Part shown: piece after piece, positions 2,471 through 10,434 of the stretch
Layout of the letters: each line of letters begins with the position of its first letter
Numbering within the stretch: position 1 is the stretch's first letter
NCBI GenBank assembly: GCA_047611865.1
Contig: JBLFWS010000064.1
Coordinates: 1-16,257, forward strand
Source: Chlamydiales bacterium
GTDB lineage: Bacteria > Chlamydiota > Chlamydiia > Chlamydiales > JBDQID01
Reading direction: 5' to 3'
Length of the DNA: 16,257 nucleotides
Position numbers and translations under genes: made by a program
The notes under the pieces: generated by a model
Database searches by the model: none
Told to the model about the DNA's origin: nothing
What the model saw: only the letters and a program-made list of their open reading frames with translations

Positions 2471-3182
2471 TTTTCCCTCCAGAGTTAAAAGATTCCTTCC
2501 GTTACTACTACTTCTTAGCTGTATGCTTCTGGCTTATATCTCCGGTATTGGGGACTTTCTTAATCTGGAGACTCTAAAACAACACCGGCAAGAACTTATT
2601 TCATTCGTAGAGAGTTACCCCCTTCTAGCTCCTATTACCTACATTTTATGCTATATCATCGCCACAGCCCTCTCCATACCAGGAGCTATCCTTCTTACGT
2701 TGACCGGTGGCTTTTTGTTCCCGCAGCCCTTCTGCACGATTTATACCATCACCGGAGCCTCCATTGGAGCTTGTATTATCTTTCTCATTGCCAGGACGAC
2801 CCTTGGTGATTCTTTAAAACAGAAGGCCGGGAAATTCATGAATAAAATGGAATCCGGCTTGAAAGAGAACGCCGTTAGTTACCTTCTATTCTTACGATTT
2901 GTCCCTATTTTCCCCTTTTGGGTTGCCAACTTAGCTCCTGCATTTTTCGGAGTAAGTTTTTTCACCTACGCGTGGACAACAGTTATTGGAATAACCCCAG
3001 GATCTTTTGTTTTTACTCAAGCAGGAGCAGGTTTAGGAGCCATATTAGATTCAGAAGAAAAATTCTCCGTATCCACGATACTCAACAATGATATGAAAAT
3101 TGCCTTACTTGCTTTAGGGATTTTTGCTTTAATTCCCATCCTATTGAAAAAACTCCAAAATAAGAATTCAGAAAATGATTGA
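2460..3182 (+). CDS. DedA/TVP38/TMEM64 (VTT domain) membrane protein
   Basis: Motifs SIPGAILLTLTGGFLF, GASIGACIIFLIAR and LLFLRFVPIFPFWVAN. Hydrophobic. Overlaps the upstream gene by 11 nt. Confidence 0.9.
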   Translation: MKNNFPSRVKRFLPLLLLLSCMLLAYISGIGDFLNLETLKQHRQELISFVESYPLLAPITYILCYIIATALSIPGAILLTLTGGFLFPQPFCTIYTITGASIGACIIFLIARTTLGDSLKQKAGKFMNKMESGLKENAVSYLLFLRFVPIFPFWVANLAPAFFGVSFFTYAWTTVIGITPGSFVFTQAGAGLGAILDSEEKFSVSTILNNDMKIALLALGIFALIPILLKKLQNKNSEND

Positions 3183-3768
3183 TTCCTACTACCGAGATAA
3201 ATACCAAGCTATTCTCGTCAGGCCTATCGTGAAAATAATCTCCCGTTCAACTACTATCCACCCTAAACTCGTTACCTTAGTTGCCTGTTGCTCTGGAATC
3301 CTCATCATCCCCCTATTGGCATTTTCTTACCCCTACACAGCCCTTATCTTCATGCTCATTTCTGGATATCTAGATACTTTCGACGGCAGCCTTGCCAGAG
3401 AAACTCATAAAGAATCTCCTCAAGGAGCCGTACTTGATATAATTTGTGACCGCATTGTGGAATTCAGCATTATTCTCGGCCTATATTTTGTCGATCCTGT
3501 TTCAAGGAGTCTTTTATGCCTATTCATGCTTGGTAGTGTACTAATCTGTATTACTTCTTTCCTTGTAGTCGGGATATTTATTGAAAATGCTACAAATAAA
3601 AGTTTTCACTACAGTCCAGGTCTAATGGAGCGCTCAGAAGCGTTCTGCCTCTTTGCTCTAATGATACTTTTCCCAAGCTACTTTTCTTGGTTCGCAAGTC
3701 TTTTCAGTATATTAGTGTTTTGGACAGCTCTGATAAGAGTAAAAGAATTTCAAGAAAATACCCCCTAA
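3175..3768 (+). CDS. CDP-alcohol phosphatidyltransferase family protein (YnjF-like)
   Basis: Signature DxxDGxxAR...GxxLDxxxD is present as DTFDGSLARETHKESPQGAVLDIICD, plus a C-terminal GLMERSE. Overlaps the upstream gene by 8 nt. Confidence 0.88.
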   Translation: MIDSYYRDKYQAILVRPIVKIISRSTTIHPKLVTLVACCSGILIIPLLAFSYPYTALIFMLISGYLDTFDGSLARETHKESPQGAVLDIICDRIVEFSIILGLYFVDPVSRSLLCLFMLGSVLICITSFLVVGIFIENATNKSFHYSPGLMERSEAFCLFALMILFPSYFSWFASLFSILVFWTALIRVKEFQENTP

Positions 3769-3951
3769 AGCGTGTTTTCAAATAGCGAAACGCTGCTTTT
3801 GGAACCTATTTTCGCACTTTTGGATCGCACCCAACTCACTTATTTGTCTGTTTTGTCGCATTGACACATCCTTCATGAGGAACAAAGTTCCATACACATC
3901 AAGCTAAGGTTCTAAGTGGCCGTAAGAGAAAGGATAAGATAAAATAATCCT

Positions 3952-4204
3952 TACCCACGAAGTGGGTTGCAGAAGGTAGCCCAGTGCAAGAGCGAGACAT
4001 GCAGCTCTGGGTATCTGAATAAACAAAATCTTAACCCTTGAAAAGGGTGATGGAAATGCTAAAACATCTAACGGGCTTAAGAGATTTCCAGCACCCTTTT
4101 CAAGAGTGCACAATTAAATTCGCACATAACCAGAGCTACGTGTCTCGGTCGCAAGCTCCCTCGCTCTTGCACTGGGCTATCTTCTATAACCCACTTCGTG
4201 GGTA
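3952..4204. repeat. Inverted repeat pairs C (3952-3996 / 4160-4204) and D (3993-4014 / 4126-4147)
   Basis: C matches 42/45 and D matches 19/22. The two are offset by a 16-nt indel on the right arm bounded by CTCG direct repeats. Confidence 0.95.
4037..4104. repeat. Innermost inverted repeat pair E: 4037-4057 / 4084-4104
   Basis: CTTGAAAAGGGTGATGGAAAT against ATTTCCAGCACCCTTTTCAAG, 20/21, with a 26-nt central loop. Confidence 0.95.
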
Positions 4205-4445
4205 TCTTCGCTTACACTTTTTATTTACGAATTCTTTGCGCTAAAATGTAAAATTACTTAATTTTCAGCAAAACAAATCGCTACAGATTTAATTTAATAT
4301 TTACCCAAACAACTCTTTTATGATCACTTACATTCTTAGCTTGATGCGTATGGAACTTCGTTCCTCATGAAGGCTTAACCAATGCCACAAAAGATCAAAA
4401 AAAAGCGTTTCGTAATTTTAATACACGACCTAGACTGTCCGTAGG

Positions 4446-5303
4446 CTATCTACAATCCAGAGAGAACTCTAAGACAAGTTGTTCATAAGCAGCACTCAAA
4501 TCTTCCTCGAAATCCAGATCTCGAGAAAACCGTCGGTCTTGGATCTTCGTCACAGCTTGAAAATGATGCATTGAATTGCATAGAAAGACATAAGCATCAT
4601 CTGGTATTTCAGATATGGTCGCTTTGACATAATGTACATTCAGGCCCAATGAAGCTTCTGCAGCACTAAGTATCGTCATCAAAGCAACACCAAATGATAA
4701 AGGAAGATCCGGGTCAGGCGTATACAGAAATCCATCCTTTACCCAAAATATATTGGAAAAAGAAGCCTCAAGGATCTGGCCTTCTGGGTTAGTTAGTAGA
4801 AAATCATCAACACCTTTGACTTTCGCTTCAGAAGAAAAACCACACCTCCCTGATATTACGACACTATGAACACGAGAAAAAGACTCCTCTGTTGAAAGAG
4901 AAAGCATCCCCAAGCTCAACGGTTCTCTAAAACTCTTCGGGGTTTCTCTGACAGTCATAAGAAAATGGGAAAAAGATCTAAAAGCTCTATCTTCTCTTAT
5001 TTCTTCACGATCTATTGCAAATAATTTAAGCTCCCAAATCCCCTTCACCGCATTATTAAAATGGAGTAGGTCTGCAACCCAGTGCTCCATAACGAAGGGA
5101 GAGTACATAGAAATCTCATGACAATGGGTATCAAACACTCTCAAATGAGTGACGAAACTTTCAACTACACCATTGTCTATTCTAAGAGTGGAATAAATCC
5201 CCTCATCATCGAGGGAGAAACCATCGAAGATGGGGCTTCTTAACTTATCAACAGTTACGAAGACCCCATCCATAAAGGCTATTTGATTATTTTCAGAACC
5301 CAT
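4446..5303 (-). CDS. Aminotransferase class IV / PabC (aminodeoxychorismate lyase)-like protein, apparently degenerate
   Basis: Fold-IV motif DDFLLTNPEGQILEASFSNIFWVKDGFLYTP and ...DDAYVFLCNSM...VTKI. Starts 12 nt downstream of the nqrF stop. Confidence 0.75.
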   Translation of the reverse strand: MGSENNQIAFMDGVFVTVDKLRSPIFDGFSLDDEGIYSTLRIDNGVVESFVTHLRVFDTHCHEISMYSPFVMEHWVADLLHFNNAVKGIWELKLFAIDREEIREDRAFRSFSHFLMTVRETPKSFREPLSLGMLSLSTEESFSRVHSVVISGRCGFSSEAKVKGVDDFLLTNPEGQILEASFSNIFWVKDGFLYTPDPDLPLSFGVALMTILSAAEASLGLNVHYVKATISEIPDDAYVFLCNSMHHFQAVTKIQDRRFSRDLDFEEDLSAAYEQLVLEFSLDCR

Positions 5304-10376: not shown

Positions 10377-10434
10377 AGAGCCCAAGTTTCGAGTCTGACT
10401 GAGAAGTCCCCCTCGTAACTTGGGCTCTTTTTTT
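10377..10434 (+). terminator. Rho-independent terminator after htpG
   Basis: Perfect 12-bp stem AGAGCCCAAGTT (10377-10388) / AACTTGGGCTCT (10417-10428), continued by CGAG/CTCG and GACT-GAGA-AGTC, followed by a T run. It lies between convergent genes. Confidence 0.8.

What the first reader, a model, noticed from the sequence alone, without database searches (positions are those of the whole stretch)
3784..4364. The repeat shells carry strand-polarised GAA/AAA-triloop mini-hairpins
Seen: left arms hold AGCG-AAA-CGCT (3784-3794), GGAAC-AAA-GTTCC (3879-3891), ACCCAC-GAA-GTGGGT (3953-3967) and ACCCTT-GAA-AAGGGT (4034-4048). Right arms hold GCACCCTT-TTC-AAGAGTGC (4091-4109), ACCCAC-TTC-GTGGGT (4189-4203) and GGAAC-TTC-GTTCC (4352-4364). 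The stems differ but the loop is shared, so each strand read 5'->3' into the element meets purine-triloop hairpins first. Established: GNA-triloop hairpins are exceptionally stable in ssDNA, and HUH nucleases (RAYT/TnpA-REP, IS200/IS605 TnpA) recognise short ssDNA hairpins, with REPINs being inverted doublets of such hairpins. Inference: these are structure-coded recognition sites for an enzyme acting in trans, possibly an undescribed REPIN-like family.
Basis: partly seen in the sequence, partly recalled or inferred. Interest (0 to 1): 0.75.

Follow-up and report, generated by a model that had tools for sequence, protein, structure and literature searches.

The report
Hairpin repeats tied to Y1 nucleases
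The small GAA-looped DNA hairpins are real parts of a gene-free, mirror-image repeat that in related environmental chlamydiae brackets a small single-strand-DNA nuclease gene, so they look like shape signals of a little-known cousin of the bacterial REP/RAYT system, here buried inside other jumping elements.

Summary
The right-arm ones are reverse complements of the left-arm ones, so there are four independent hairpins. One of these, AGCG-AAA-CGCT, is peculiar to this copy.

The 660-bp intergenic palindrome is a nest of mobile elements:
- an outer MITE with an IS630-like end;
- a non-autonomous IS1182-like element that lands in GGG-N5-CCC-type hairpins and duplicates 10-11 bp;
- at the core, a 253-bp inverted doublet of a ~120-nt three-hairpin unit: GAA hairpin, (G/A)TAG spacer, long CCCAG..CTGGG hairpin, GAA hairpin.

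The same unit directly flanks a Y1 (HUH) gene in another chlamydial family. I surveyed 46 Y1 genes of this type, 44 of which carry the Y...Q..HH signature of TnpA-Y1 subclass 1.2. In their flanks, 85 of 184 hairpins have GNA/GNNA-type loops on the strand reading toward the gene, against 6 on the opposite strand. Stems vary (33 inner stems). None of 30 canonical IS200 loci shows the paired pattern.

So the REPIN-like, HUH-linked reading is largely right. No enzyme activity is shown, and no cognate gene for this unit is in the assembly.

The scan described the same Y1/three-hairpin pairing before, on another chlamydial genome (e1-2368947).

The parts
3175..3768 (+). CDP-alcohol phosphatidyltransferase gene, left neighbour. 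Its TAA stop (3766-3768) overlaps the TA that abuts the outer repeat.
   Evidence: ORF; Pfam PF01066, 55.9 bits; sequence
3768..4430 (.). Outer shell: a degenerate member of a MITE superfamily whose modal size is 161 bp. The TIR is GGTCGTGTATTAAAATTA: the left copy at 3768-3785 is degenerate, the right copy at 4413-4430 is intact. TA lies on both sides (3766-3767, 4431-4432).
   Evidence: 138 genome hits of the terminal 21-mer. 50 end pairs, 16 of them 160-169 bp. 31 of 38 pairs have TA on both sides. The IS630-like assignment is inferred; no partner transposase was found.
3784..3794 (+). AGCG-AAA-CGCT hairpin in the outer repeat: peculiar to this copy, incidental.
   Evidence: 0 of 63 homologous termini have an AAA-loop stem >=4 bp
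3851..3891 (+). Left arm (Y') of a second REP-like unit (U2), ending in hairpin GGAAC-AAA-GTTCC at 3879-3891. In full copies it continues as a 13-nt spacer ending ATAG, then a CCTAG..CTAGG hairpin.
   Evidence: contigs C97, C9; C52, C212 variants GGGAC-GAA-GTCCC
3891..4352 (.). Non-autonomous IS1182-like element 'CE'. TIRs are CATACACATCAAGCTAAGG (3891-3909) and CCTTAGCTTGATGCGTATG (4334-4352). It is flanked by the hairpin halves GAACAAAGTTC (3880-3890) and GAACTTCGTTC (4353-4363).
   Evidence: Alignment of copies with flanks. Four other copies have direct 10-11-bp duplications: GGGCAAGGCCC, GGGTGAAGCCC, GGGTAATACCC, GGGCTTGCCC. The same left end lies next to a DDE ORF on contig C198, which scores NCBIfam IS1182 111 bits on a truncated ORF.
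3952..4204 (.). Element D: an inverted doublet of the three-hairpin unit U (left unit 3951-4055, right unit 4086-4205), joined H3-to-H3 by a 42-nt spacer.
   Evidence: I2 arms 93% complementary; 17 aligned units; single units and doublets elsewhere in the genome
3953..3967 (+). H1 of the left unit: ACCCAC-GAA-GTGGGT, with a C-G closing pair.
   Evidence: conserved in own copies and in G117 and G120
3968..3979 (+). Spacer TGCAGAAGGTAG, ending in GTAG at the foot of H2.
   Evidence: (G/A)TAG in all aligned units
3980..4011 (+). H2 of the left unit (CCCAGTGC..GCTCTGGG). It carries a 16-nt internal deletion relative to other copies.
   Evidence: outer stem covaries with G117 (CCCCGACC/GGTCGGGG)
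4034..4048 (+). H3 of the left unit: ACCCTT-GAA-AAGGGT.
   Evidence: the stem differs in G117 (CACCCAC/GTGGGTG), G120 (CACCCTC/GAGGGTG) and G083 (GGCCT/AGGCC), with loop GAA or GAAT (one G083 arm reads GGA)
4091..4109 (-). H3 of the right unit. On the + strand it reads GCACCCTT-TTC-AAGAGTGC, with one mismatch.
   Evidence: I4
4129..4176 (-). H2 of the right unit, full length, with the conserved core GAGGGAGCTTGCGACCGAGACACGTAGCTC.
4189..4203 (-). H1 of the right unit. On the + strand it reads ACCCAC-TTC-GTGGGT.
4352..4392 (+). Right arm (Y) of unit U2, starting with hairpin GGAAC-TTC-GTTCC at 4352-4364.
4446..5303 (-). Class IV aminotransferase gene, right neighbour, convergent with the left gene.
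   Evidence: ORF; Pfam PF01063, 77 bits

Best explanation
The hairpins at 3879-3891/4352-4364, 3953-3967/4189-4203 and 4034-4048/4091-4109 are the small outer and inner hairpins (H1, H3) of REP-like three-hairpin DNA units.

Each unit has four parts in order:
- a small hairpin with a GNA/GNNA loop, mostly GAA and mostly closed by C-G;
- a spacer of about 12 nt ending in (G/A)TAG or CAG;
- a longer hairpin starting CCNAG;
- a second small hairpin.

In environmental chlamydiae, two such units in mirror orientation bracket genes of the Y1 HUH nuclease/transposase group 'TnpA-Y1 subclass 1.2'. The GNA strand always reads toward the gene.

Element D in the window (and the remains of a second unit type around it) is the same mirror pair without the gene. 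That makes it a REPIN-like, non-autonomous doublet.

Most likely mechanism (inferred). When the DNA is single-stranded, only the GNA strand folds into extra-stable mini-hairpins. These mark the strand and the unit borders for the Y1 enzyme. The enzyme binds the central (G/A)TAG-footed hairpin and cuts and rejoins single strands, so gene-free doublets are copied or moved in trans.

The concentric 'shells' arise because other structure-seeking elements landed in or next to these hairpins: an IS1182-like element that duplicates 10-11 bp of GGG-N5-CCC-type hairpins, an IS630-like MITE and, elsewhere in the genome, group II introns.

Shown: the anatomy, the families, stem covariation with a kept loop, the physical link to Y1 genes, and loop polarity across 46 loci.
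Inferred: recognition and cleavage by the Y1 enzyme, action in trans, and the role of the loop.
For: (1) D is an inverted doublet of a ~120-nt unit that also occurs as single copies.

(2) Unit homologues exist in 3 of the other 199 scored genomes of the order, in three other families. This is a floor, because only 2 candidates per genome were scored. They keep all three hairpins with other stems:
- H1: ACCCAC or GCCC.
- H3: ACCCTT, CACCCAC, CACCCTC or GGCCT.
- H2 outer stem: CCCAGTGC, CCCCGACC, CCCAGGCC or CCCAGGGC.
- Loops: GAA or GAAT; one arm has GGA.

(3) In G117 a complete unit lies 30 nt from a Y1 gene, with a second copy behind it and an H3-type hairpin on the other side (locus L141). 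Own and G117 units align at 78% mean column identity. On that alignment 94.6% of cells are paired and 6 pairs changed on both sides (4 of 500 shuffles reach this). The covariation score is 0.277 against 0.107 (0 of 500).

(4) In this genome the Y1 gene on contig C24 is bracketed by dispersed ~90-nt units of the same layout: AAGGCC-GAA-GGCCTT, then CAATACTGCCAG, then CCCAGGGC-AAC-GCCCTGGG, then AGCTCT-GTA-AGAGCG. These also occur as gene-free doublets on C30, C18 and C100.

(5) Survey of 46 Y1 loci of the lower-scoring class, from 34 genomes in 17 families:
- 44 of 46 carry Y...Q..HH; 0 of 30 canonical loci do.
- Within 150 nt, upstream loops contain GAA 27 times and TTC once; downstream loops contain TTC 37 times and GAA 3 times.
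- In toward-gene orientation, 64 of 184 hairpins contain GAA, with 33 distinct inner stems.
- These fall in 27 of 46 loci, 24 of 34 genomes and 13 of 17 families.
- GNA/GNNA plus T-GNA-G loops number 85 of 184, against 6 on the other strand. The closing pair is C-G in 50 of 71.
- Shuffled flanks give 1.76 upstream GAA and 1.71 downstream TTC per set. Loci with both average 0.04, with a maximum of 1 in 100 shuffles.
- No canonical IS200-type locus shows the paired pattern: 0 of 30.

(6) d(GCGAAGC)/d(GCGAAAGC)-type mini-hairpins are extraordinarily stable and nuclease-resistant, whereas TTC-loop hairpins are not (passages of PMC13037366). GNA stability depends on the closing pair (abstract of PMC3201870). 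This gives a physical reason for a one-strand signal.

(7) Genome-wide, GAA/TTC triloop hairpins number 336 against about 198 expected, and 147 of them lie in recurrent 13-mers of several repeat families.
Against: - No Y1 gene in this assembly is flanked by the window's own unit types U or U2.
- The best match in this genome to the G117 unit-linked protein is only 43% identical. So for this locus the enzyme link rests on another genome.
- 19 of 46 surveyed loci have no GAA-loop hairpin within 150 nt, and 12 of 46 have no GNA/GNNA-type loop.
- The surveyed loci are relatives, not independent samples.
- I fixed the loop measure after seeing five loci.
- Start codons were guessed crudely, so flanks are offset in many loci.
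- The proteins score as IS200-type in NCBIfam (72.2 bits, cut-off 55) and not as RAYT.
- Same-stem inverted pairs genome-wide are few: GAA..TTC 6, TTC..GAA 3.
- Contigs of public runs show no excision or empty site at this locus.
- Some loops (GGAA, GAAA, GTAA, GTGA) are also good RNA tetraloops.
Confidence: 0.65

Rival explanations
1. Nothing but nested cut-and-paste MITEs. The hairpins are only parts of terminal inverted repeats, or preferred target palindromes of DDE transposases, and have no link to a Y1 enzyme.
For: - The outer shell has a conserved 18-21-nt TIR with TA on both sides in 31 of 38 pairs.
- The CE element has TIRs and 10-11-bp direct duplications of hairpin targets in four copies.
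- CE has a DDE-carrying relative.
- The GGAAC hairpin borders CE on both sides in the window.
- The genome holds many DDE transposase genes.
Against: - D has no DDE partner.
- D's unit is conserved across families with covarying stems.
- The unit abuts a Y1 gene in G117.
- The loop polarity around 46 Y1 genes is not explained by DDE elements.
Confidence: 0.12
2. The hairpins act in RNA. They would be terminators, 3'-end protectors or small RNAs between convergent genes, with GNRA-like loops selected for RNA stability.
For: - The region lies between two convergent genes.
- Some unit loops are GNRA tetraloops: GGAA, GAAA, GTAA, GTGA.
- G-T pairs occur in one stem in the unit orientation.
Against: - No Rfam family matches at the gathering score or at E<=10 beyond generic long-hairpin hits.
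- Mirror arrangement puts GAA on opposite strands on the two sides of genes and doublets. A transcript would therefore carry GAA on one side and UUC on the other.
- GAA triloops, GGTA and GGCA are DNA mini-hairpin types, not RNA tetraloops.
Confidence: 0.1
3. The hairpins are kept because another structure-reading agent uses them, not the Y1 enzyme. Candidates are group II introns that home next to them, the IS1182-like transposase, or a small hairpin nuclease.
For: - ORF-less group II introns (RF00029, 49.9 and 46.1 bits) sit 4 nt after GAA hairpins in several copies.
- CE lands in hairpins.
- Earlier scan notes mention GIY-YIG hairpin nucleases in other phyla.
Against: - Parasites that use a site do not explain why the host element keeps it.
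- The link with Y1 genes is direct and recurrent.
- I did not search this genome for GIY-YIG nucleases.
Confidence: 0.08

Closest known systems
REP / REPIN - RAYT (TnpA-REP) systems of Proteobacteria (E. coli REPtron, Pseudomonas REPINs)
   Same: - Short intergenic palindromic units dispersed in the genome.
- Inverted doublets without a gene.
- Mirror copies bracketing a Y1 HUH gene.
- A conserved (G/A)TAG tetranucleotide at the 5' foot of the main hairpin.
Sources: section 12 and passages of PMC6006769; search listings and abstracts of PMC3116915 and PMC3337134.
   Different: - The protein is not a class 2 TnpA-REP: REP_Tyr_transpos scores 24.4 bits against a cut-off of 80.
- The unit is about 90-120 nt with three hairpins instead of one 20-40-nt hairpin.
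- The two small hairpins carry GNA/GNNA loops.
- This genome holds at least two near-identical gene copies plus a broken one.
TnpA-Y1 subclass 1.2 (Quentin, Siguier, Chandler & Fichant 2018, PMC6006769)
   Same: The Y...Q..HH signature is present in 44 of 46 surveyed proteins, along with a conserved C-terminal stretch. The proteins are close to IS200 transposases by HMM.
   Different: Section 18 of the paper (read) describes the subclass as generally lacking typical terminal IS200 secondary structures and as mostly restricted to Cyanobacteria and Bacteroidetes. It reports no REP-like partner. Here the genes sit in chlamydiae between mirror three-hairpin units that also exist as gene-free copies. 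I did not open the paper's supplementary tables.
IS200/IS605 family (IS608, ISDra2)
   Same: A Y1 HUH enzyme; single-strand chemistry that reads subterminal hairpins on one strand. The closest solved structures are IS608- and ISDra2-type TnpA, weakly (E about 1e-3).
   Different: IS200/IS605 ends are two different hairpins, not mirror copies (recalled, and background of PMC6006769). None of 30 canonical loci in the same order shows the paired upstream-GAA / downstream-TTC pattern: 0 of 30 have both, although 8 of 30 have some GAA- or TTC-containing loop in the 300-nt flanks. No TnpB-like second gene was seen beside the six loci whose sequence I read in full.
REP/BIME sequences as landing sites of insertion sequences (Tobes & Pareja 2006, PMC1525189; search listing and abstract only)
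   Same: Other mobile elements insert into the palindromes, giving mosaic, nested intergenic regions.
   Different: Here the invaders are an IS1182-like element with a 10-11-bp duplication of the hairpin, an IS630-like MITE shell and group II introns.
DNA mini-hairpins d(GCGAAGC)/d(GCGAAAGC) (Hirao and co-workers; review PMC13037366, passages read)
   Same: C-GAA-G and C-GNNA-G loop-closing motifs. The closing pair is C-G in 50 of 71 GNA/GNNA loops.
   Different: The known natural examples named in the review are phage replication origins and promoters. A role in transposon-like repeats does not appear in the passages I read.

Membership tests
REP/REPIN-RAYT system | Short palindromic unit dispersed in many intergenic copies | tested here: met
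   17 U units on 11 contigs. R units are on C24, C30, C18, C14, C100, C55, C244, C103, C177, C179 and C261.
REP/REPIN-RAYT system | Inverted doublets (REPINs) without a gene | tested here: met
   D at 3952-4204, and doublets on C39, C40, C12 and C175. R doublets on C30, C18 and C100.
REP/REPIN-RAYT system | Units flank a Y1 HUH gene in mirror orientation (REPtron) | tested here: inconclusive
   Met for R units in this genome (C24) and for U in G117. Not met for U or U2 in this assembly; the assembly has 272 contigs and is 95.5% complete.
REP/REPIN-RAYT system | Conserved GT[AG]G at the 5' foot of the hairpin | tested here: inconclusive
   GTAG or ATAG precedes H2 in all aligned U units. R units have CCAG, and other loci have CTAG, ATAG or CAG.
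REP/REPIN-RAYT system | Protein belongs to TnpA-REP (class 2 / RAYT) | tested here: not met
   NCBIfam REP_Tyr_transpos 24.4 bits (cut-off 80); transpos_IS200 72.2 bits (cut-off 55). Y...Q..HH signature in 44 of 46.
REP/REPIN-RAYT system | Enzyme cleaves and rejoins its REP in single-stranded form | not testable with these tools
   Needs protein and oligonucleotide assays.
TnpA-Y1 subclass 1.2 | Y motif Y---Q--HH and a conserved C-terminal domain | tested here: met
   44 of 46 proteins. The C24 protein has YIANQRKHH and ...SFQEEYRRLLNKNGVEFNERYVWD. Definition read in section 18 of PMC6006769.
IS200/IS605 insertion sequence | Two different subterminal hairpins, no inverted repeats, multicopy whole element | tested here: not met
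   Flanks are mirror copies of one unit. The canonical loci of the order lack the paired pattern: 0 of 30.
MITE of a DDE transposon (outer shell and CE) | Terminal inverted repeats plus target-site duplication, many short copies | tested here: met
   Outer shell: TIR in 189 termini, modal size 161 bp, TA on both sides in 31 of 38 pairs. CE: TIRs and 10-11-bp direct duplications in 4 copies.
Acido-Lenti-1 RNA motif (RF01687), suggested by an earlier scan note for a three-hairpin module in another chlamydia | Match to the Rfam covariance model | tested here: not met
   No match in the window at E<=10 nor in seven unit-bearing loci at E<=1.

The most novel reading that the evidence does not exclude
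Chlamydial TnpA-Y1 subclass 1.2 proteins, published without any DNA partner, would run a distinct REP-like system. Their substrate would be a composite three-hairpin unit. The two small C(GNA)G / C(GNNA)G mini-hairpins would be the functional strand markers, or the actual cut sites, of single-strand transposition.

Chimeric joints between different hairpins fall exactly in the GAA(G) loop on C147, C198 and C177. The stable hairpins then also serve as landing pads for IS1182-like elements and group II introns, which would build the nested palindromes seen in many environmental chlamydiae.
Probability: 0.3. Interest if true: 0.75.

Novelty: new variant of a known kind. Interest (0 to 1): 0.6.

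Why it matters
REP/RAYT systems are the best-known case of a domesticated or semi-domesticated transposase living with a population of hairpin repeats, and they have been studied almost only in Proteobacteria.

Here an orphan branch of the same enzyme superfamily (subclass 1.2) gets a candidate DNA partner. The partner has an unusual, easily testable feature: loops of the extra-stable DNA mini-hairpin type on one strand only. That gives a concrete assay, with top and bottom strand oligonucleotides and loop swaps.

It would also explain the long nested palindromes that recur in genomes of environmental chlamydiae and that break their assemblies.

Tried and rejected
- **Rfam.** There was no family at gathering score in the window. 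At E<=10 on 3700-4500, and at E<=1 on seven unit-bearing loci, only generic long-hairpin (miRNA-model) hits appeared.
- **tRNA/tmRNA.** None in the window.
- **Scan of genome contigs with the conserved H2 core.** 0 matches.
- **Scan of genome contigs with 16 nt of the outer TIR.** 64 are single matches. 2 loci, both in one Omnitrophota MAG, hold 6 and 2 matches. I judged them all chance and did not use them.
- **Same-family relative.** No match; that genome is 68% complete.
- **Partner transposase for the outer MITE.** 12 DDE_3 matches. None has the TIR at its ends: one TIR lies about 1.1 kb from the C11 gene, and the IS630-type element there has other TIRs.
- **IS110 (PF01548).** 0 matches in the assembly.
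- **Y1 genes of this genome.** Their flanks hold no U, U2, CE or outer-TIR motifs, except one distant degenerate TIR.
- **Public runs.** No RNA holder was listed.
- **Contigs of four DNA runs laid on 3300-4900.** Contigs stop inside the repeats. The one skipping joint (3962 to 4218, with 10 other letters between) matches other genomic CE copies without D. There is no evidence of excision or of an empty site.
- **RNAalifold on 17 units.** It found only part of H2 because loop-length differences misalign H1 and H3. I used a hand-set structure on a smaller alignment instead.
- **Two of my regex searches were too loose.** They gave thousands or hundreds of chance hits. I used only the X-terminus tally and read a few rows by eye.
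- **IS231/IS4 idea.** My early idea that CE is an IS231/IS4-type element came from recalled target preferences. The HMMs point to IS1182.
Full report
**Observation**

The seven hairpins are in the sequence at the stated places. A script recovers the six perfect ones. In 3769-4433 there are 6 triloop hairpins with stem >=4 and loop GAA/TTC/AAA/TTT, against a mean of 0.45 (max 3) in 1000 dinucleotide-preserving shuffles. There are 4 with stem >=5 and loop GAA/TTC, against 0.03 (max 1). The seventh, at 4091-4109, has one mismatch.

They are not seven independent facts. The region is a set of concentric inverted repeats:
- I3: 3771-3803 / 4395-4427
- I1: 3840-3929 / 4314-4403
- I2: 3952-3996 / 4160-4204, 93% complementary
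- I4: 4034-4057 / 4084-4107

Every TTC hairpin on the right is therefore the reverse complement of a GAA or AAA hairpin on the left. Within the window, the 'strand polarity' follows from mirror symmetry alone.

**Setting**

The window is a whole 16,257-bp contig of a 3.59-Mb, 272-contig assembly. Earlier notes of this scan call the organism an uncultured chlamydia-like bacterium.

The region lies between two convergent housekeeping genes: a CDP-alcohol phosphatidyltransferase (3175-3768, +) and a class IV aminotransferase (4446-5303, -). No tRNA and no Rfam family is present.

**Anatomy: a nest of dispersed repeats**

The 677-nt region has 96 matches elsewhere in the genome. Match depth changes in steps at 3771, 3849/3851, 3890/3891, 3952, 4204, 4352/4353 and 4433. 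The shells are therefore separate repeat families.

(a) *Outer shell.* The terminal 21-mer ending at 4433 occurs 138 times with up to 3 mismatches. A 14-nt core gives 189 termini and 50 inward-facing pairs, 16 of them 160-169 bp long. 31 of 38 pairs of 100-1300 bp have TA on both sides, mostly inside CTAG. Abutting elements share one TA.
- This is a MITE superfamily with TIR GGTCGTGTATTAAAATTA.
- The TA/CTAG pattern recalls IS630. That is my recollection of IS630's target preference, not a test.
- No partner transposase with this TIR was found.
- The window's left end is degenerate, and its flanking TA lies in the stop codon of the left gene.
- The AGCG-AAA-CGCT hairpin sits in this shell and is peculiar to this copy: 0 of 63 homologous termini have an AAA-loop stem of 4 bp or more.

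(b) *Element CE (3891-4352).* It has 19-nt TIRs (CATACACATCAAGCTAAGG / CCTTAGCTTGATGCGTATG).
- Four other copies are flanked by direct duplications of a short palindrome. They are GGGCAAGGCCC (C39), GGGTGAAGCCC (one copy split over C177 and C46), GGGTAATACCC (C270 and C42), and GGGCTTGCCC (C84, 10 bp).
- The same left end continues on C198 into a DDE ORF that runs off the contig. That ORF scores NCBIfam IS1182 at 111 bits, below the cut-off of 270 because it is truncated, and also hits Pfam DDE_Tnp_1_6 and DDE_Tnp_1.
- CE is thus a non-autonomous IS1182-like element that lands in GGG-N4-5-CCC hairpins and duplicates them.
- In the window, and in the copy on C198/C191, it is bordered by the GGAAC hairpins in inverted rather than direct relation. 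This could result from two insertions and a recombination. That is inference.

(c) *Element D (3952-4204).* It is a mirror pair of a ~120-nt unit U.

**The unit**

U reads as follows:
- H1: ACCCAC-GAA(T)-GTGGGT
- a 12-nt spacer ending in GTAG or ATAG
- H2: a long hairpin CCCAGTGC..GCTCTGGG around the conserved core GAGGGAGCTTGCGACCGAGACACGYAGCTC
- a spacer of about 20 nt
- H3: (C)ACCCTT-GAA-AAGGGT(G), followed by CTGGAA or ATGGAA

I aligned 17 units. They include singles (C19, C148, C12, C147) and doublets (the window, C39, C40, C12, C175). The left unit in the window has a 16-nt deletion in H2.

One copy on C22 keeps the H2 core between two quite different hairpins, GTCGC-GGAA-GCGAC and GCCAC-GGAA-GTGGC.

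The GGAAC hairpin belongs to a second unit type, U2. In full copies it reads GGAAC-GAA-GTTCC, then GCTACAGTAATAG, then CCTAG..CTAGG. Variants are GGGAC-GAA-GTCCC, GATACACCAATAG, CCTAGGGC-GTAA-GCCCTAGG ... GCGCT-GAA-AGCGC. GGAGC/GCTCC also occurs. In the window, CE has replaced the inner part of that doublet.

**Relatives elsewhere**

The H2 core pattern has no exact match in 185,579 species genomes; own-genome records may be left out of that scan. BLAST over 200 scored genomes of the order finds the unit in three other genomes of three other families. Only two candidates per genome were scored, so this is a floor.

Their sequences keep the three hairpins with other stems and the same kind of loop:
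- G117: H1 ACCCAC-GAA; H2 CCCCGACC/GGTCGGGG; H3 CACCCAC-GAA-GTGGGTG.
- G083 (doublets): H1 GCCC-GAA-GGGC; H2 CCCAGGCC/GGCCTGGG; H3 GGCCT-GAA(T)-AGGCC, with GGA in one arm.
- G120: H1 ACCCAC-GAA plus solo H1 copies; a short H2 CCCAGGGC-N11-GCCCTGGG; H3 CACCCTC-GAA-GAGGGTG.

I aligned four own units with three G117 units, giving 78% mean column identity. On this alignment my three-helix structure has 94.6% of cells paired. Six pairs changed on both sides (4 of 500 shuffles reach this). The covariation score is 0.277 against 0.107 (0 of 500). Slid controls reach at most 48% paired. Only two lineages are in that alignment, so few independent events are counted.

**Link to a Y1 HUH gene**

The genome has five Y1_Tnp matches.

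*C24.* The complete gene on C24 encodes 150 aa from its ATG and scores Pfam 89.9 bits. It is bracketed by ~90-nt units R at 29136-29244, 29332-29421 (inverted) and 29979-30087. R units recur on ten other contigs, as gene-free doublets on C30, C18 and C100.
- R reads AAGGCC-GAA-GGCCTT, then CAATACTGCCAG, then CCCAGGGC-AAC-GCCCTGGG, a spacer, then AGCTCT-GTA-AGAGCG.
- The first stem also occurs as AAGACC/GGTCTT and GAGGCC/GGTCTC.
- This is the same layout as U, and the central stem matches the H2 of G120.

*C51.* A broken Y1 gene on C51 has mirror flanks with AGCCC-GAA-GGGCT, GCCTAGGGC-GAT-GCCCTAGGC and GCAGCC-TGAAG-GGCTGC.

*The decisive case is G117.* A 150-aa Y1 ORF has a complete U unit 30 nt from one end, a second U 255 nt further on, and an H3-type hairpin with the CTGGAAA tail on the other side (L141). 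Y1 genes of G083, G120 and a second G117 locus have mirror units of the same layout with other stems.

**Survey**

Y1_Tnp is found in 85 of 200 scored genomes of the order and falls into two score classes.

*Sample.* I fetched 40 loci of the lower class. The criteria were 85-106 bits, near full length, no stops, and spread over genomes. Not all such rows were taken. I added six loci I already held, giving 46 loci from 34 genomes in 17 families. The 30 loci the tool returned for the top-scoring class serve as contrast.

*Protein signature.* 44 of 46 lower-class proteins carry Y...Q..HH, against 0 of 30. That is the signature of TnpA-Y1 subclass 1.2 in Quentin et al. 2018 (PMC6006769, section 18, read).

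*Hairpin counts.* I counted perfect stems >=5 with loops of 3-5 nt.
- Within 150 nt upstream of the gene, 27 loops contain GAA and 1 contains TTC. Downstream, 37 contain TTC and 3 contain GAA.
- 17 of 46 loci have both upstream GAA and downstream TTC, against 0 of 30 in the contrast class. In 100 shuffles of the 300-nt flanks the mean is 0.04 and the maximum 1.
- Oriented toward the gene, 64 of 184 hairpins have GAA in the loop, with 33 distinct inner stems, against 4 with TTC. The plain GAA triloop is the commonest loop: 32 cases, 19 stems, 17 loci.
- These fall in 27 of 46 loci, 24 of 34 genomes and 13 of 17 families.
- Widening to G-N-A, G-N-N-A and T-GNA-G loops gives 85 of 184 against 6 on the other strand, in 34 of 46 loci. 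The closing pair is C-G in 50 of 71. In the contrast class the figures are 1 of 51 against 5.

*Caveats.*
- The loci are relatives, not independent samples.
- The start codon was often not found, so many 'upstream' flanks begin at the preceding stop. This can only lose hairpins.
- 19 of 46 loci have no GAA loop within 150 nt.

Reading the flanks directly shows that the upstream flank and the reverse complement of the downstream flank are the same unit, with H3 next to the gene. Element D has exactly this arrangement, with a 42-nt spacer in place of the gene.

**How it probably works**

Y1 HUH enzymes of the IS200/IS605 and REP families act on single-stranded DNA. They read hairpins plus a short guide at the hairpin foot (background and section 12 of PMC6006769).

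d(GCGAAGC)- and d(GCGAAAGC)-type mini-hairpins have a sheared G-A pair. They melt near 76 degrees C and resist nucleases, whereas TTC-loop hairpins do not (passages of PMC13037366). GNA stability depends on the closing pair (abstract of PMC3201870).

From this I infer four steps:
- In a single-stranded state, only the GNA strand of a unit folds into very stable H1 and H3.
- That marks the strand and frames the (G/A)TAG-footed H2, which is the REP-like binding site.
- The Y1 enzyme then cuts and rejoins that strand.
- Gene-free doublets such as D are moved or copied in trans.

A hint that breaks occur at the loops comes from three joints. On C147 the left arm of H3 is joined at GAAG to the right half of a different hairpin, the one found in the IS1182-like element of C198. 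CE copies on C177 and C198 carry ACCCAC or AGCCAC, then GAAG, then AGGCT, where D-bearing copies have the full H1. This rests on three joints and has other possible histories.

Nothing here shows binding, cleavage or movement. For U and U2, no cognate gene is in this assembly. The best relative of the G117 protein in this genome is 43% identical.

**Why the shells are concentric**

Several elements seek these hairpins.
- CE duplicates GGG-N5-CCC-type hairpins, including the R hairpin (copies on C177 and C224) and the GGAAC hairpin.
- ORF-less group II introns lie 4 nt after GAA hairpins. They score RF00029 at 49.9 and 46.1 bits on C97 and C9. The joints read GCACT-GAA-AGTGC GACA|GTGCG and GGGAC-GAA-GTCCC GACA|GTGCG.
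- Genome-wide, GAA/TTC triloop hairpins with stems >=5 number 336 against about 198 in three Markov simulations. 147 of them lie in 13-mers that recur three or more times, from at least eight repeat families.

**Comparison with what is known**

*Works like:* REP/REPIN-RAYT.

*Membership:* the DNA side fits, with dispersed palindromic units, inverted doublets, mirror flanks of a Y1 gene and a TAG-type foot. The protein side does not: it scores as IS200-like, not as REP_Tyr_transpos.

*Best protein label:* TnpA-Y1 subclass 1.2. Section 18 of the 2018 survey describes this subclass as low-copy, mostly cyanobacterial or Bacteroidetes, and generally without typical IS200 end structures. It reports no REP-like partner. 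I did not read that paper's supplements.

*GTAG-tagged REPs in the PVC group:* Di Nocera et al. 2013 (PMC3733652) report them there. The passages I saw name only Planctomycetes and Opitutus terrae.

*Literature searches:* the term sets 'RAYT' + 'Chlamydia'; 'REPIN/RAYT/hairpin/GTAG'; 'TnpAY1' or 'subclass 1.2'; and 'Chlamydiae' with 'repetitive extragenic palindromic' or 'IS200' turned up no description of this pairing.

*Within this scan it is not new:*
- Note e1-2368947 describes a subclass-1.2 Y1 gene between mirror three-hairpin repeats in another chlamydial genome.
- Notes e1-3238118, e1-5150363, e1-4083400 and e1-3872818 describe related nested palindromes in other chlamydiae.

- the tie between a gene-free nested doublet and a Y1-flanking unit in another family;
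- the 46-against-30 survey of loop polarity;
- the GNA/GNNA, C-G-closed generalisation;
- the identities of the invading elements.

**Verdict**

The polarity inside the window is trivial, but relative to the unit it is real. The REPIN-like, HUH-linked interpretation is largely right for three of the four independent hairpins and wrong for the fourth.

It is a new variant of a known kind of system, of moderate to good interest, and it comes with a clear bench test.

Noticed in passing
G000 contigs C9:29770-30971 (L065) and C97:5571-6562 (L064); also C36, C70, C66, C20: ORF-less group II introns of about 770 nt lie inside the palindromic elements. Rfam Intron_gpII scores 46.1 and 49.9 bits. They are always inserted 4 nt (GACA) after a GAA-loop hairpin, in either orientation, which looks like stem-loop-directed homing.
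   Followed up: partly
G000 C198:5122-6218 and C147:1-1000 (L060, L057): This is the likely autonomous relative of element CE: the same left TIR next to an IS1182-like DDE ORF, split over two contig ends. On C147 its end region is fused to a U unit exactly at a GAAG loop.
   Followed up: partly
window 3765-3768: The TA that abuts the outer repeat lies inside the TAA stop codon of the phosphatidyltransferase gene. The insertion therefore sits flush with, or supplies part of, the stop codon.
   Followed up: no
G000 C163:2667-3810: A pair of outer-type TIRs encloses 1144 bp with a 269-aa ORF that looks like a membrane protein and not a transposase. It may be a passenger gene.
   Followed up: no
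G000 C112:6790-6847 (L033): A 22-23-bp perfect palindrome (TTTACGACATATCGTAAAATAGT...) and related repeats lie just upstream of a weaker Y1_Tnp match (53.8 bits, 338-aa open frame). This is a different Y1 context from the three-hairpin units.
   Followed up: no
G000 C25, C27, C30, C58, C130, C85, C149, C244: Another repeat family reads GAGGGCTGGCCCTTTGGTGGGGTTT followed by GGGGC-GAA-GCCCC or GGGAT-GAA-ATCCC. Its GGG-N5-CCC hairpins are of the type that CE duplicates.
   Followed up: no
window 10377-10428: A 24-nt inverted repeat (83% complementary, 4 nt apart) lies right after the htpG-like gene. It is possibly a terminator or another small repeat.
   Followed up: no
window 3988-4003 versus other U copies: The left unit of D lacks 16 nt of the H2 core that the right unit and all other doublets keep. 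This copy is therefore decayed.
   Followed up: partly
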